Shown here: positions 735-13,281 of the stretch, piece after piece
How positions within the stretch are numbered: the stretch's first letter is position 1
How the letters are laid out: each line of letters starts with the position of its first letter
NCBI RefSeq assembly: GCF_009931435.1
Contig: NZ_CP043414.1
Length of the DNA: 64,000 nucleotides
Reading direction: 5' to 3' (one strand)
DNA from: Escherichia coli
Lineage (GTDB): Bacteria; Pseudomonadota; Gammaproteobacteria; Enterobacterales; Enterobacteriaceae
Position numbers and translations under genes: made by a program
Notes under the pieces: model-generated
Told to the model about the DNA's origin: nothing
The model's input: only the letters and a program-made list of their open reading frames with translations
The model's database searches: none

Positions 735-1028
735 ATGATGATGAACGATAAAAACACCCAGACTACCGCAGAGAACACCATCACTTTACAGGTCGGCGAG
801 CATGAACTGACGTTTATCCCGACCGTAAAAGCCTACAACGACCTGCAGAACGACTTCATGCCGGATAACAAAATCGCGCCGCTGAAAAACTACCTGCGCC
901 GTATCGTGATTAAAGAGCACCGCGATCTGCTGAACCAGTTGCTGGAAAAACCAGGAATGCCGGCCAGCCTGGCAACAGCCGTGAATAACGAGTTTGTGCC
1001 GGAAGTGGAAATCACCGTAAAAAAATAA
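735..1028 (+). CDS. tail assembly chaperone (G/E-like)
   Basis: 97-aa ORF immediately 5' of the tape measure gene, ending in a slippery A-run with a downstream -1 frame extension. Confidence 0.55.
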   Translation: MMMNDKNTQTTAENTITLQVGEHELTFIPTVKAYNDLQNDFMPDNKIAPLKNYLRRIVIKEHRDLLNQLLEKPGMPASLATAVNNEFVPEVEITVKK

Positions 1029-1216
1029 AAAGCCATCTGGGGGCCATTGATCGCAATGACCTTACCCGGATGCTGATTCTGCGCCGCCACTGGCTGCCCG
1101 GCGAGGATGACTCGCCGCAGTCACTGGCTGCCGCCGTCTGCCTGGATAACCACTACTGGGAAAATATGAGCATCGCCGTCAATAACGGCATTATCCGTGC
1201 TTTTAAGGGATCGTAA
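735..1216 (+). CDS. predicted -1 frameshift extension product of the tail chaperone (G-T / E+E' type)
   Basis: Heptamer A AAA AAA at 1019-1025; the -1 frame is open from 1016 to TAA at 1214-1216 (...IKSHLGAIDRNDLTRMLILRRHWLPGEDDSPQSLAAAVCLDNHYWENMSIAVNNGIIRAFKGS); that stop overlaps the tape measure ATG. Confidence 0.45.
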
Positions 1217-11040: not shown

Positions 11041-11587
11041 CGGGGAAGCCATTCTGCTGCGTAACATCACCGTCAGCGCCACCATGCAACTACCGGACAA
11101 AGATATGTCCGGACAGTCAACCAGCACCACGAGCGCCCAGCAGGGAAACAAGGCTAAAGAGCTGCGCGTGTCGGGGGTTATTGATTTTAACGATGAAGCT
11201 ATTCTGACCCGTATTTTTCAGCTTGCGGAGGCAACAGAAAGCAACGGTGCTAAAAAAACATATCGCATTGCTAACGCTACCGCGAAGGCAATCAATATGC
11301 GACAGGGGGTGTTTTCTGGTGGCATTGATGCCACGGAACAACAGGGAAAAATGCACTGGCAGATCACCTTTACTCTCAGGGAAAAATTAAGCGTGCCAGA
11401 GAAAGCATCCGCACGCAGCGGTTCGCAGAAAACCATCGCCAGACAGCAGACCCAGAATGGCAGCGAACAGGTACCAGACAAAGGCATGAATACGCAAAGT
11501 TCGTTCTGGAAAAAAATCAATGATGCCGTTGGCTCTGGTCTGGATGCTGTTGGCATCGGGAGCGTGAAAGAGGAAGGGAAAACATGA
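11012..11587 (+). CDS. tail protein, possibly gpU-like
   Basis: 191 aa; segment LRVSGVIDFND...MHWQITFTLRE loosely resembles the P2 gpU family as I recall it; immediately 5' of a hub-like gene, matching P2 U-D order. Confidence 0.35.
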   Translation: MTQMIVLALDGEAILLRNITVSATMQLPDKDMSGQSTSTTSAQQGNKAKELRVSGVIDFNDEAILTRIFQLAEATESNGAKKTYRIANATAKAINMRQGVFSGGIDATEQQGKMHWQITFTLREKLSVPEKASARSGSQKTIARQQTQNGSEQVPDKGMNTQSSFWKKINDAVGSGLDAVGIGSVKEEGKT

Positions 11588-13281
11588 AATTGATACAACG
11601 CTGCATGATTAATGGCGAACGGGTGGAAATTGCCGATATAAGCCTTGTTCTTACCCTGAATGCTGCCGGTCGTGGCTTCATTTCTGTTAACAATCTGTCA
11701 CCCGAACACAGCCTTGCCGGCGCAATGGTACAAATTGATCTCGGCCGTGACGGTGAAGCATGGCGCTATTTCTCCGGCTACATTGAGCGCGATCAACCTG
11801 CTGAAAATGGCTCACGTCGCCTTTTTATTCGTGAAGCGGCTGCTGTGCTGGATTTTGATTTCCCTTGCTCCATGCAACACCCGACGTTGCGGGGGGTACT
11901 CGATAATCTGGGGCGACAAAGCGGTATCGTTTTTATCACTCCGGATGCGGATTATGCCAGTATACCAACTCCCTACATCACCCACAGCGGCAGCGGAGCA
12001 CAACTGCTCAGCCAACTGGGGCGAGCATTCAGTATCAGCGATTACGTCTGGCACCCTATGCCGGACGGTTCTGTATTTGTGGGAAGCGCAGCTGATTCAC
12101 GATTTGCCAGTATTACAATGCCGGATATTCCGCAACAGTACACACTCGGGCAAAGCGGCGGAAACAGCATCGACATCATGTTTATGGAAACTGTGCGACC
12201 GGGCGTGAACCTACCGGCCGGGCGCATTACCCGTGTAGCCCTCAACAACGAGAAAATGACCCTGACATGGGAGCGCCTTACCGCCACGGGTACCCCTGTT
12301 TCCAAATCACCATTACGCAGACAAATGGAAACACAGTTCCCAGAACTGGCCAGCGGTACGCTACATACCCGGCTGGCGCGCGTCATTGCGCCAACGGAGC
12401 CCACCACCCTGGGCGACGTGGCCGACAGTTTCCGCCCACGCTACGCCGTCGATGTGCAGTTGCTTGATGAGAACGGCAACGATAAAAGCGACACGCCCGT
12501 TTACCCGGCAGTACCGCTCCCCGTCCCCATGGCTGGCAGTGAGGCGGGATGTTTTGCCTACCCACCGGCAGGCACCATCGTGGAAATATCCAACATTGAA
12601 GGACGTCCGGACAAACCCGTTATCAGGCAAATCTTACCCGCTGGCCATAACCTGCCTGATGTAAAGCCCGGCGAACAGCTGCAGCAACAGCGCGCAGAAG
12701 TGTTTCAGCGCGTCACGACTGACGGAAGCTGGCACAGAGAAACCGATCAGCAAATCAGGGAGCATTCAGCCAGACGAACCATTAACAGCGATCAGGAAGA
12801 ACGCACAACAACAACCAGAACAACAACAGTACAGGCAAACGACATAACCAGCGTTCTGGGAACCAGCAAGCTGATGACAGGCCAGACAGAACACATTACT
12901 ACTGGTCATTATGCGATCGCAGCCGGTGAGCATATCCAGATGGTAGCGCAGGATTTGCTGACTAAACTCAAAGGGGCGACATCCACGATTGAGCGCGACC
13001 TTACTGAAAACGTGGGAGGCCGCAGAACATGCCGGGCGGACGGTGGTCTGGAGTTTACAGCCCCGACAGTATTTATTGGTCGCGGTGGCTCACGGGAAAA
13101 ATCCGGACTTAATCTGCTGACGTTGTTGATTGATATTCTGGATCTGGTTCAGTTGCTGGCCACACACACTGCAAACCACACCCACAGCAACACCGGCGCA
13201 CCAACAAACAACAGCGAACTTGCCGCAGACGCCAAACAGGCTACGAGCCTGCGCGAAAAATACGGTGACCTTATCGCCTGA
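11584..13281 (+). CDS. baseplate hub protein, gpD/gp27/VgrG-like
   Basis: 565 aa; N-terminal pattern ...ISLVLTLNAAGRGF...AMVQIDLGRDGEAWRYFSGYIER is typical of Phage_GPD/VgrG N-domains; Thr-rich stretch EERTTTTRTTTVQ; last gene of the tail operon. Confidence 0.5.
   Translation: MKLIQRCMINGERVEIADISLVLTLNAAGRGFISVNNLSPEHSLAGAMVQIDLGRDGEAWRYFSGYIERDQPAENGSRRLFIREAAAVLDFDFPCSMQHPTLRGVLDNLGRQSGIVFITPDADYASIPTPYITHSGSGAQLLSQLGRAFSISDYVWHPMPDGSVFVGSAADSRFASITMPDIPQQYTLGQSGGNSIDIMFMETVRPGVNLPAGRITRVALNNEKMTLTWERLTATGTPVSKSPLRRQMETQFPELASGTLHTRLARVIAPTEPTTLGDVADSFRPRYAVDVQLLDENGNDKSDTPVYPAVPLPVPMAGSEAGCFAYPPAGTIVEISNIEGRPDKPVIRQILPAGHNLPDVKPGEQLQQQRAEVFQRVTTDGSWHRETDQQIREHSARRTINSDQEERTTTTRTTTVQANDITSVLGTSKLMTGQTEHITTGHYAIAAGEHIQMVAQDLLTKLKGATSTIERDLTENVGGRRTCRADGGLEFTAPTVFIGRGGSREKSGLNLLTLLIDILDLVQLLATHTANHTHSNTGAPTNNSELAADAKQATSLREKYGDLIA

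What the first reader, a model, noticed from the sequence alone, without database searches (positions are those of the whole stretch)
735..13281. Tail operon with myovirus-type baseplate genes but no sheath or tube genes, and a non-P2 gene order
The order is chaperone(+frameshift)-tape measure-W-J-I-fibre-Tfa-fibre2-Tfa2-unknown-U-like-D-like, all ATGA/GTGA-coupled, directly after the lysis genes. P2 places V-W-J-I-H-G before FI-FII-E-T-U-D, and Mu places sheath and tube before the chaperone. Here no sheath, tube or spike (V) gene is present between lysis and chaperone or anywhere in the 13 kb. Either the prophage is a deletion or rearrangement derivative (cryptic), or the module has been repurposed, for example as a tailocin-like or baseplate-only element, or the missing genes lie 5' of the window.
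Basis: partly seen in the sequence, partly recalled or inferred. Interest (0 to 1): 0.45.

Follow-up and report, generated by a model that had tools for sequence, protein, structure and literature searches.

The report
HP1-type phage tail operon, cut by window
This is the downstream half of the late operon of an ordinary HP1-type (P2-family) contractile-tailed prophage of E. coli; the "missing" sheath and tube genes lie just before the window starts, and the "missing" spike is fused to the last gene.

Summary
The genes are real and at the stated coordinates, but the puzzle comes from the window edge. Base 1 of the window falls inside a holin gene, at codon 27. A 99.5 % identical E. coli prophage (strain 7_33_46A) has, immediately 5' of that point, head completion, tail terminator R, S, sheath (DUF2586/phrog_907) and tube (HP1_Orf24), then the holin. 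All 41 complete E. coli genomes that match this junction hold at least 80 % of it in one piece.

Every gene from head completion to the last baseplate gene matches Haemophilus phage HP1 orf20-orf35 and Salmonella phage SI7 gp06-gp24 one-to-one, in the same order. The only exceptions are the swapped lysis genes and the extra fibre genes. Vibrio phage K139 and Pseudomonas phage phi3 are annotated in the same order. The "non-P2 order" is therefore the published HP1-subgroup order of Peduoviridae, with the lysis cassette sitting after the tube gene.

The spike is not absent. The last gene (565 aa) has a Mu gp44 / P2 gpD-type hub at its N-terminus, followed by a gpV/gp5-type OB fold and beta-helix, like VgrG. 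The "U-like" gene has a tube-initiator/ripcord fold. The -1 frameshift site A_AAA_AAN is conserved in all five phages compared. The only extras are a second fibre and its DUF4376 partner, a cassette shared with phage Rac-SA53. Verdict: ordinary, low interest.

The parts
1..219 (+). 3' part of the holin gene (residues 27-98 of a 98-aa holin), cut by the left edge of the window
   Evidence: The frame is open from base 1 and the product is identical to the C-terminus of the L001 holin. The full protein matches PF04550 (E=5.5e-28) and phrog_175.
225..332 (+). Unannotated 35-aa ORF between holin and endolysin. It has GAGGAG 6 nt upstream, and its stop overlaps the endolysin start (ATGA). Possible small lysis accessory peptide.
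   Evidence: Read directly from the sequence. No homology test was done.
329..670 (+). M15-family peptidase endolysin
   Evidence: PF13539, E=3.2e-11. 80 % identical to the SI7 gp12 endolysin.
677..708 (+). Hairpin with a 13-bp stem in the 64-nt gap between the endolysin and the chaperone gene. Possible attenuator or RNA-processing site.
   Evidence: Terminator-like scan and the junction sequence. Function not tested.
735..1028 (+). Tail assembly chaperone (orthologue of HP1 orf26, counterpart of P2 E)
   Evidence: PF10963, E=1.6e-26. 40 % identical to HP1 orf26.
1019..1025 (+). Slippery heptamer A_AAA_AAA for a -1 programmed frameshift, directly before the chaperone stop codon
   Evidence: An A_AAA_AAN heptamer sits at the same place in HP1, SI7, K139 and phi3, and in each the -1 frame is open up to the tape measure start.
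1025..1216 (+). The -1 frame extension of the chaperone (DUF6890), giving the long chaperone form (counterpart of P2 E+E'). Its stop overlaps the tape measure start.
   Evidence: The -1 frame is open from 989 to 1216. PF21830, E=6.7e-22, for the RefSeq-annotated ORF.
1216..3312 (+). Tail tape measure protein (698 aa)
   Evidence: PF10145, E=7.5e-29. 40 % identical to HP1 orf27 and 26 % to P2 T.
3302..3652 (+). DUF2590 baseplate protein in the position of P2 W / T4 gp25 (orthologue of HP1 orf28)
   Evidence: PF10761, E=1.2e-35. 57 % identical to HP1 orf28. No detectable sequence similarity to P2 gpW (hhalign probability 0.6 %), so the W label rests on position only.
3645..4829 (+). Baseplate wedge protein, J/gp47 family
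   Evidence: PF04865, E=1.3e-31. phrog_6. 55 % identical to HP1 orf29.
4826..5461 (+). Baseplate wedge protein, P2 I-like
   Evidence: PF09684, E=7e-5. phrog_1228, E=2e-81. 48 % identical to HP1 orf30.
5458..7158 (+). Tail fibre 1 (566 aa)
   Evidence: PF12571, PF03406 and PF20744. The N-terminus is 36-44 % identical to HP1 orf31 and SI7 gp20.
7161..7712 (+). Tail fibre assembly protein, P2 G-like
   Evidence: PF02413, E=4.8e-21. 40 % identical to P2 G.
7719..9758 (+). Tail fibre 2 (679 aa), extra relative to HP1, SI7 and K139. Its N-terminal attachment domain is homologous to that of fibre 1.
   Evidence: PF12571, E=6.3e-9. 30 % identical to fibre 1 over the first ~200 aa. 48-56 % identical to Rac-SA53 tail3.
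9758..10330 (+). DUF4376 protein, partner of fibre 2 (presumed assembly or accessory protein)
   Evidence: PF14301, E=2.1e-12. phrog_1141. 56 % identical to Rac-SA53 tail4. Unrelated to the first fibre assembly protein at 7161-7712.
10327..11040 (+). HP1 orf33-like conserved tail/baseplate protein, role unresolved
   Evidence: 25-30 % identical to HP1 orf33 and SI7 gp22 in the same position. phrog_31292 and phrog_1677. No Pfam, PDB or profile match.
11012..11587 (+). HP1 ORF34-family protein with a tail-tube fold: tube-initiator/ripcord class, functional counterpart of P2 gpU
11584..13281 (+). HP1 orf35-like fused baseplate hub plus central spike (VgrG-like). The N-terminal ~250 aa form a gpD/Mu gp44/T4 gp27-type hub. 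Next come a gpV/gp5-type OB fold (~310-350) and a beta-helix (~400-500), then a C-terminal tip with an invariant HxH motif (H532, H534).
13869..17346 (+). Low-GC (0.39) cargo at the prophage right end: a 212-aa unknown protein plus a YafO toxin (13869-14887), a HEC-04 ATPase/nuclease defence candidate (15330-16799), and a truncated DNA methylase (16960-17346)
   Evidence: (PDLC04149, E=6e-204).
17447..17466 (.). Candidate attR core ACAAAAAACGCGCCCGAAGG. The same 20-mer lies at the pheL|integrase junction of the near-identical prophage.
   Evidence: with the gene maps.

Best explanation
Window 1-17466 is the right-hand part of an integrated, apparently complete HP1-subgroup Peduoviridae (P2-family) myovirus prophage of E. 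coli, inserted between pheL and raiA.

Region 735-13281 is the distal two thirds of its single late tail operon. In this phage group the order is: head completion, terminator R, S, sheath, tube, lysis cassette, chaperone (with a -1 frameshift), tape measure, DUF2590, J, I, fibre(s), orf33, orf34, orf35. The window begins inside the holin gene, so sheath and tube fall just outside it.

How the products are inferred to work:
- The chaperone and its frameshifted long form hold the tape measure protein.
- The hub-spike fusion (orf35-like) and the tube-fold adaptor (orf34-like) nucleate the baseplate centre.
- DUF2590, J and I form the wedges, which carry two kinds of fibre with homologous attachment domains.
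- Tube and sheath, encoded upstream, polymerise on this baseplate.

What is shown here: gene content, collinearity, the upstream genes in near-identical prophages, the two predicted folds, and conservation of the frameshift site. What is inferred: expression, assembly, and inducibility of this particular copy.
For: (1) The holin ORF is open from window base 1 and equals residues 27-98 of the 98-aa holin.

(2) Window 1-18083 is 99.5 % identical to E. coli 7_33_46A. There, the genes just 5' are L (PF05926), R (PF06891/phrog_65), S (PF05069), sheath (PF10758 E=1e-126; phrog_907 'tail sheath' E=3.5e-147) and tube (PF10772 HP1_Orf24 E=1e-50).

(3) All 41 complete E. coli genomes that match the 4.1-kb R-to-chaperone stretch hold at least 80 % of it in one piece; 100 % coverage in the 40 listed.

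(4) BLASTP gives collinear one-to-one matches to HP1 orf20-35 (23-57 % identity) and SI7 gp06-24 (30-80 %). Exceptions: the holin, endolysin and DUF6890 ORF have no HP1 hit, and the fibre extras have none in either phage. Against P2, only L, S, holin, T, H and G give hits.

(5) The annotated maps of HP1, SI7, K139 and phi3 show the same order.

(6) Published statements agree. HP1 hol and lys lie between the tail tube gene ORF24 and ORF25 (PMC7312051). HP1-like viruses are a genus-level group distinct from P2 whose tail genes show little similarity to P2 (PMC2771037). HHpred links HP1-group sheath, tube, sheath initiator, gpU and cell-puncturing device to P2 (PMC10612066).

(7) The hub-plus-spike fold of the last gene and the tube-initiator fold of orf34-like complete the parts list of a contractile-tail baseplate.

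(8) The -1 slippery site is conserved in five phages.

(9) The near-identical prophage carries integrase, repressor, replication endonuclease, ogr-type activator, portal, terminase, scaffold and capsid genes.
Against: - The DNA 5' of the window in the window's own genome could not be read. The upstream genes are inferred from near-identical prophages.
- The sheath and tube assignments rest on family annotation, orthology to HP1, K139 and SI7, and literature. Single-sequence searches of both proteins against PDB found nothing.
- No spanin gene was found next to the endolysin, although HP1 and SI7 have one.
- The reference copy in 7_33_46A carries an IS66 insertion in an early gene, so inducibility of any given copy is unproven.
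- DUF2590 and the orf33-like protein have no demonstrated role.
Confidence: 0.93

Rival explanations
1. Cryptic deletion or rearrangement derivative: in the window's genome the prophage has lost sheath, tube and head genes, leaving only lysis, baseplate and fibre genes.
For: Nothing 5' of the holin can be seen in the window. P2-like prophages are often cryptic (stated in PMC6823313, as listed). The right end carries a truncated methylase gene, and an IS4 fragment lies nearby.
Against: - The holin frame is open up to base 1.
- All 13 tail ORFs are intact and have the same lengths as in the RefSeq copy.
- All 41 matching genomes hold the sheath-tube-lysis-chaperone junction in one piece.
- The closest relatives, at 99.3-100 % identity over the junction, all have the full set.
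Confidence: 0.04
2. Repurposed tailocin-like or baseplate-only element, domesticated by the host and not a phage.
For: The tail genes are tightly coupled and intact. The fibres are mosaic and exchangeable, as in R-type pyocins. Defence-type cargo lies next to the module.
Against: In the near-identical copy the same transcription unit is preceded by capsid, scaffold, terminase, portal and head-completion genes, plus integrase, repressor and replication genes. Tailocins lack these. Isolated relatives (HP1, K139, SI7, phi3) are deposited and classified as Peduoviridae phage genomes. A candidate att core repeat flanks the element.
Confidence: 0.02
3. A P2-type or Mu-type tail module that has been internally rearranged, that is, a new gene order.
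For: The order differs from P2, which has V-W-J-I-H-G ... FI-FII-E-T-U-D.
Against: The order is identical to that of at least four recognised Peduoviridae genera. It has been in the literature since the HP1 genome, cited as reference 36 in PMC2771037, with the lysis cassette position described in PMC7312051.
Confidence: 0.01

Closest known systems
Haemophilus phage HP1 (Hpunavirus, Peduoviridae), late operon orf20-orf35
   Same: The gene order is the same gene for gene: head completion, R, S, sheath, tube, lysis, chaperone (-1 frameshift at A_AAA_AAN), tape measure, DUF2590, J, I, fibre, assembly protein, orf33, orf34, orf35. BLASTP identity is 23-57 % for 15 orthologues.
   Different: - The lysis genes differ: an M15 peptidase and a P2 Y-like holin here, against a SAR muramidase and pinholin in HP1 (PMC7312051).
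- No spanin gene was found here.
- This prophage has a P2 G-like fibre assembly protein, and a second fibre with a DUF4376 partner.
Salmonella phage SI7 (Irrigatiovirus), with the Cronobacter ESSI-2 / Escherichia ESSI2_ev group
   Same: Closest sequenced phages by protein identity. The hub-spike is 45-48 % identical across the group. For SI7: endolysin 80 %, J 60 %, sheath 55 %. The order is the same, including the separately annotated DUF6890-type ORF.
   Different: There is no nucleotide-level similarity: megablast of the 13.4 kb finds no HP1-group phage covering more than 2 % of the query, and the largest hits (up to 9 %) are fibre-module matches in other phages. SI7 has one fibre and a spanin. 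This prophage is therefore probably outside the listed genera.
Enterobacteria phage P2 (Peduovirus)
   Same: Same family. The head module (Q, P, O, N, M, L) and the R and S genes are shared. The holin is 39 % identical to P2 Y, the fibre assembly protein 40 % to G, and there are fibre segments like H. The principle of the E/E' -1 frameshift is the same.
   Different: P2 splits its tail genes into three units (R-S; V-W-J-I-H-G; FI-FII-E-T-U-D), with separate V (spike) and D (hub) genes. Here there is one unit, with the hub, spike and initiator genes after the fibres and with hub and spike fused. Sheath, tube, W, J, I, U, D and V show no BLASTP similarity.
Phage Mu / MuSo2 baseplate hub gp44 and spike gp45; T6SS VgrG
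   Different: Mu encodes hub and spike as two genes placed before W-J-I. Sequence identity is only 9-18 %.
Escherichia phage Rac-SA53 fibre cassette tail1-tail4
   Same: The same four-gene arrangement: fibre, Tfa, fibre 2, DUF4376. Window 6481-9046 is 83 % identical at DNA level. DUF4376 is 56 % and fibre 2 is 48-56 % identical at protein level.
   Different: The rest of the Rac-SA53 genome gave no near-identity match to the 13.4-kb query. Only the host-range cassette is shared, which is consistent with horizontal exchange.

Membership tests
HP1-subgroup Peduoviridae tail/late operon | Sheath and tube genes directly upstream of the lysis cassette, which in turn precedes the chaperone and tape measure genes | tested here: met
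   Met in the 99.5 % identical prophage L001, and at least 80 % of the junction is held in one piece in all 41 matching E. coli genomes.
HP1-subgroup Peduoviridae tail/late operon | Collinear orthologues of HP1 orf26-orf35 (chaperone, tape measure, DUF2590, J, I, fibre, orf33, orf34, orf35) | tested here: met
   BLASTP table. Pfam families DUF2590, HP1_ORF34 and Phage_TAC_10. Maps.
HP1-subgroup Peduoviridae tail/late operon | P2-family head module (Q, P, O, N, M, L) upstream on the same element | tested here: met
   L001 carries portal, large terminase, GPO scaffold, P2-family capsid, gpM and gpL genes. This was seen only in the near-identical relative.
HP1-subgroup Peduoviridae tail/late operon | -1 programmed frameshift at the 3' end of the chaperone gene | tested here: met
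   A_AAA_AAA at 1019-1025, with the -1 frame open to the tape measure start. The motif is conserved in HP1, SI7, K139 and phi3. Frameshifting itself was not measured.
A named genus (Hpunavirus, Irrigatiovirus, Longwoodvirus, Phitrevirus) | Genome-wide nucleotide similarity to the type species (the ICTV genus criterion of about 70 %, from my own knowledge) | tested here: not met
   Megablast of the 13.4 kb against 50,697 phage records covers at most 9 % of the query, in fibre genes only. Protein identities to SI7 are 30-80 %.
R-type tailocin / domesticated contractile tail | Absence of capsid, packaging, replication and integration genes from the element | tested here: not met
   All of these genes are present in the near-identical copy.
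P2-type (Peduovirus) tail gene organisation | Order V-W-J-I-H-G, then FI-FII-E-T-U-D, with separate V and D genes | tested here: not met
   P2 map compared with this locus. Hub and spike are fused here.
VgrG-like fused hub-spike proteins | gp27-like hub, gp5 OB fold and beta-helix in one polypeptide | tested here: met
Tube initiator / ripcord (P2 gpU, pyocin PA0626, T4 gp48/gp54 class) | Tail-tube fold protein encoded next to the hub gene | tested here: met
Sheath initiator (P2 gpW / T4 gp25) | gp25-like fold | tested here: inconclusive
   The DUF2590 protein occupies the W position, but hhalign against P2 gpW gives a probability of 0.6 % and there is no PDB profile hit. HHpred in PMC10612066 reports a sheath-initiator homologue in an HP1-group phage, without naming the family.

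The most novel reading that the evidence does not exclude
In the window's own genome, unlike all 41 sequenced relatives, the prophage is broken exactly upstream of the holin. The intact, tightly coupled baseplate, fibre and hub-spike genes would then persist without sheath, tube and head genes, as a remnant or a repurposed element. A milder reading that is also not excluded: both fibres, which share a homologous attachment domain, are mounted on one HP1-type baseplate and give dual receptor specificity.
Probability: 0.03. Interest if true: 0.35.

Novelty: new member of a known kind. Interest (0 to 1): 0.07.

Why it matters
It matters little for biology. The architecture is the textbook HP1-subgroup arrangement, and near-identical copies are already in public E. 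coli genomes.

The useful outcome is methodological. An apparent absence next to a window edge should not be read as a deletion. In HP1-type phages the lysis cassette is embedded between the tube and chaperone genes, and the spike is hidden in a fused hub-spike gene at the 3' end of the operon.

Minor value: this prophage lineage occurs in 41 of 5,426 complete E. coli genomes. It has no close relative among deposited phage genomes and may represent an unclassified Peduoviridae genus with a two-fibre cassette.

Tried and rejected
- ORF 420-722 (inside the endolysin gene, other frame) and ORF 26-319 were tested as possible spanin or lysis genes. Neither has a PHROG or Pfam hit and both have implausible sequences. 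Rejected.
- Sequence searches against PDB found nothing useful for orf33-like, orf34-like, DUF2590, the orf33 family profile, the sheath or the tube.
- Profile comparisons found no signal: DUF2590 family against P2 gpW, orf33 family against orf34 family, and orf34 family against P2 gpU. Homology to the P2 proteins is therefore supported only by fold (orf34, orf35) or by position (DUF2590). orf33-like remains unassigned.
- A literature search on DUF2586, DUF2590, Hpunavirus and HP1-like was swamped by heterochromatin protein HP1. The HP1 genome paper (PMC145952) is not held.
- A direct-repeat search of the prophage found only the 8-nt tandem repeat. The att core was found by a targeted comparison of the two junctions instead.
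- No sigma-70-like promoter was found on the + strand within 1-13300. This fits a single late transcript driven from upstream but proves nothing.
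Full report
**1. Observation**

The + strand between 735 and 13281 carries thirteen intact, closely packed ORFs. Family searches give the following:

| Coordinates | Assignment | Evidence |
|---|---|---|
| 735-1028 | Tail assembly chaperone | PF10963, E=1.6e-26 |
| 1216-3312 | Tape measure protein | PF10145 |
| 3302-3652 | DUF2590 protein | PF10761 |
| 3645-4829 | Baseplate J/gp47 protein | E=1.3e-31 |
| 4826-5461 | P2 I-like protein | E=7e-5; phrog_1228, E=2e-81 |
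| 5458-7158 | Tail fibre 1 | PF12571, PF03406 |
| 7161-7712 | P2 G/lambda Tfa-type assembly protein | PF02413 |
| 7719-9758 | Tail fibre 2 | PF12571 |
| 9758-10330 | DUF4376 protein | PF14301 |
| 10327-11040 | Conserved protein | No Pfam family |
| 11012-11587 | HP1_ORF34-family 'baseplate complex protein' | E=2.5e-53 |
| 11584-13281 | 565-aa 'baseplate protein' | phrog_2258, E=9e-232 |

The 'ATGA/GTGA coupling' is only partly literal. Four junctions are ATGA or GTGA overlaps. The rest are TAATG overlaps, longer overlaps of 8, 11 and 29 nt, or gaps of 2 and 6 nt.

The frameshift call is right. The chaperone ends ...GTA AAA AAA TAA. The heptamer A_AAA_AAA lies at 1019-1025. The -1 frame is open from 989 to 1216, encodes a DUF6890 domain, and stops on the tape measure start codon. 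The same A_AAA_AAN heptamer, with an open -1 frame, is found at the same place in HP1, SI7, K139 and phi3.

**2. The 'missing' sheath and tube**

The window starts inside a gene. Frame 1 is open from base 1 to the stop at 217-219 and encodes residues 27-98 of a 98-aa holin.

Window 1-18083 is 99.5 % identical to a chromosomal segment of E. coli 7_33_46A. In that genome the genes immediately 5' of the position of window base 1 are as follows:
- Head completion L (PF05926).
- Tail terminator R (PF06891, phrog_65).
- S (PF05069).
- A 382-aa DUF2586 protein that is phrog_907 'tail sheath' (E=3.5e-147).
- A 151-aa HP1_Orf24 protein (PF10772, E=1e-50), which is the tube.
- The holin.

The tube gene ends 81 bases before window base 1.

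A search with the 4.1-kb R-to-chaperone stretch finds 41 of 5,426 complete E. coli genomes. Every one holds at least 80 % of the stretch in one piece, and the 40 listed cover 100 % of it. No truncated form was seen.

**3. The 'non-P2 order'**

Haemophilus phage HP1, Salmonella phage SI7, Vibrio phage K139 and Pseudomonas phage phi3 belong to four different Peduoviridae genera. All are annotated in exactly the order seen here, with the lysis cassette after the tube gene and three genes (orf33, orf34, orf35 in HP1) after the fibre genes.

A BLASTP table shows one-to-one collinear matches to HP1 orf20-35 (23-57 % identity) and SI7 gp06-24 (30-80 %). The holin, endolysin and DUF6890 ORF have no HP1 hit. 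The only genes without a counterpart in either phage are the P2 G-like assembly protein, the second fibre's unique part and DUF4376. Against P2, only L, S, holin, T, H and G give hits.

The literature agrees:
- HP1-like viruses were separated from P2-like viruses because their tail genes show little similarity to P2 (PMC2771037).
- The HP1 hol and lys genes are described as lying between the tail tube gene ORF24 and ORF25 (PMC7312051).
- HHpred links the HP1-group sheath, tube, sheath initiator, gpU and cell-puncturing device to P2 at about 13 % identity (PMC10612066).

It is met, with one caveat: the upstream DNA was read in near-identical prophages, not in the window's own genome.

**4. The 'missing' spike and the last three genes**

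An alignment of 23 homologues of the 565-aa protein was used for AlphaFold2. The N-terminal ~250 residues are confident. The C-terminal beta-rich part has low confidence as a monomer.

Three further points support the spike:
- The family profile matches the T4 gp5 beta-helix at E=3e-4, over positions 415-500.
- All 23 members hit the Phage_base_V OB-domain model, with best E=7e-6.
- An HxH pair (H532, H534) is invariant near the C-terminus. From my own knowledge, this resembles the metal-binding tip of P2 gpV-type spikes. It was not tested here.

So this gene is a VgrG-like fusion of the D-type hub and the V-type spike.

The HP1_ORF34-family protein was modelled from 30 homologues, with core pLDDT about 90. 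It has a tail-tube fold, and its best matches are ripcord and tube-initiator proteins:

PA0626 is the P2 gpU counterpart (from my own knowledge). 'U-like' is thus supported at fold level, although there is no sequence similarity to P2 gpU.

DUF2590 could not be linked to gpW by sequence. The orf33-like protein remains unassigned.

**5. Is it a complete phage?**

In 7_33_46A the element begins next to pheL and runs as follows:
- A tyrosine integrase and an HTH repressor.
- Early genes, one of them interrupted by an IS66 element in that strain.
- A replication endonuclease, ParM-type partition genes and an ogr-type zinc-finger activator.
- The divergent portal and terminase genes.
- Scaffold, capsid, small terminase, and then the tail operon.

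A 20-nt sequence, ACAAAAAACGCGCCCGAAGG, is present at both the pheL|int junction and window 17447-17466, just before raiA. It is a candidate att core.

After the last tail gene comes low-GC cargo:
- An unknown 212-aa protein with a YafO toxin.
- A full-length match to the PADLOC candidate defence protein HEC-04 (E=6e-204).
- A truncated methylase.

This content is that of a temperate phage, not a tailocin, and no essential module is missing.

**6. What differs from the closest relatives**

(a) There are two fibre genes. Their N-terminal attachment domains are homologous (30 % identity over ~200 aa), and each is followed by an unrelated accessory gene. This four-gene cassette is shared with phage Rac-SA53, as tail1-tail4. 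It is a horizontally exchanged host-range module, not a new invention.

(b) The lysis cassette has been swapped: an M15 peptidase and a P2 Y-like holin, with no recognisable spanin.

(c) No deposited phage genome resembles the region at nucleotide level beyond short stretches: the fibre genes (up to 9 % of the query) and two small pieces of the tape measure gene (2 % or less). The lineage is probably an unclassified genus of the HP1 subgroup.

**7. Verdict**

The finding describes real genes accurately, but its puzzle is an edge effect combined with an unfamiliar, published gene order. The best explanation is the distal part of the late operon of a complete HP1-type Peduoviridae prophage (confidence about 0.93). 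The cryptic-remnant and tailocin readings together keep about 0.06, only because the window's own upstream DNA could not be read. Interest is low.

Noticed in passing
window 225-332 (+): Unannotated 35-aa ORF (MLSRREQKAAAIAWKIIRALWYWLRKPQQPHKEQK) between holin and endolysin. GAGGAG lies 6 nt upstream, and its stop overlaps the endolysin ATG (ATGA). Possibly a small lysis accessory peptide.
   Followed up: partly
window 670-735: There is no Rz/spanin gene between the M15 endolysin and the chaperone gene, although HP1 (orf25), SI7 (gp13) and phi3 (gp24) have one there. The 64-nt gap holds a hairpin with a 13-bp stem (677-708).
   Followed up: partly
window 5458-10330: The four-gene host-range cassette (fibre, Tfa, second fibre, DUF4376) is shared with Escherichia phage Rac-SA53 tail1-tail4. 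Part of it is 83-89 % identical at DNA level to Rac-SA53, phiP27 and a record named Actinobacillus phage vB_Apl-pPE4. The two fibres have homologous N-terminal attachment domains.
   Followed up: partly
window 15177-15232: Perfect tandem repeat (AAGCGATG)x7, about 100 nt upstream of the HEC-04 gene. The 99.5 % identical prophage in strain 7_33_46A has about 10-11 copies, so the copy number varies between strains. A hairpin with a 20-bp stem follows at 15252-15296. Possibly a phase-variable promoter region.
   Followed up: partly
window 13869-17346: Low-GC (0.39) cargo island at the prophage right end: a 212-aa unknown protein plus a YafO-family toxin, a 489-aa ATPase/nuclease matching the PADLOC candidate defence protein HEC-04 (E=6e-204), and a truncated N6/N4 DNA methylase.
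   Followed up: partly
window 17447-17466: The 20-nt sequence ACAAAAAACGCGCCCGAAGG, just before raiA, is repeated at the pheL|integrase junction of the near-identical prophage (L007 position 4558). It is a candidate att core, and the prophage lies between pheL and raiA.
   Followed up: partly
window 18083-18893 (ORF 18029-18808, - strand): About 0.8 kb is present in the window but absent from strain 7_33_46A, between raiA and bamD. It encodes a 259-aa fragment with an IS4 transposase N-terminal domain (E=2.5e-33).
   Followed up: partly
L001 6515-7793 (E. coli 7_33_46A prophage, outside the window): The early region of the prophage carries ParM-type plasmid segregation genes and a plasmid partitioning/stability gene. 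This is unusual for an integrated P2-family prophage. The same copy has an IS66 element inserted in a DUF4761 gene (L007 6470-9353).
   Followed up: no
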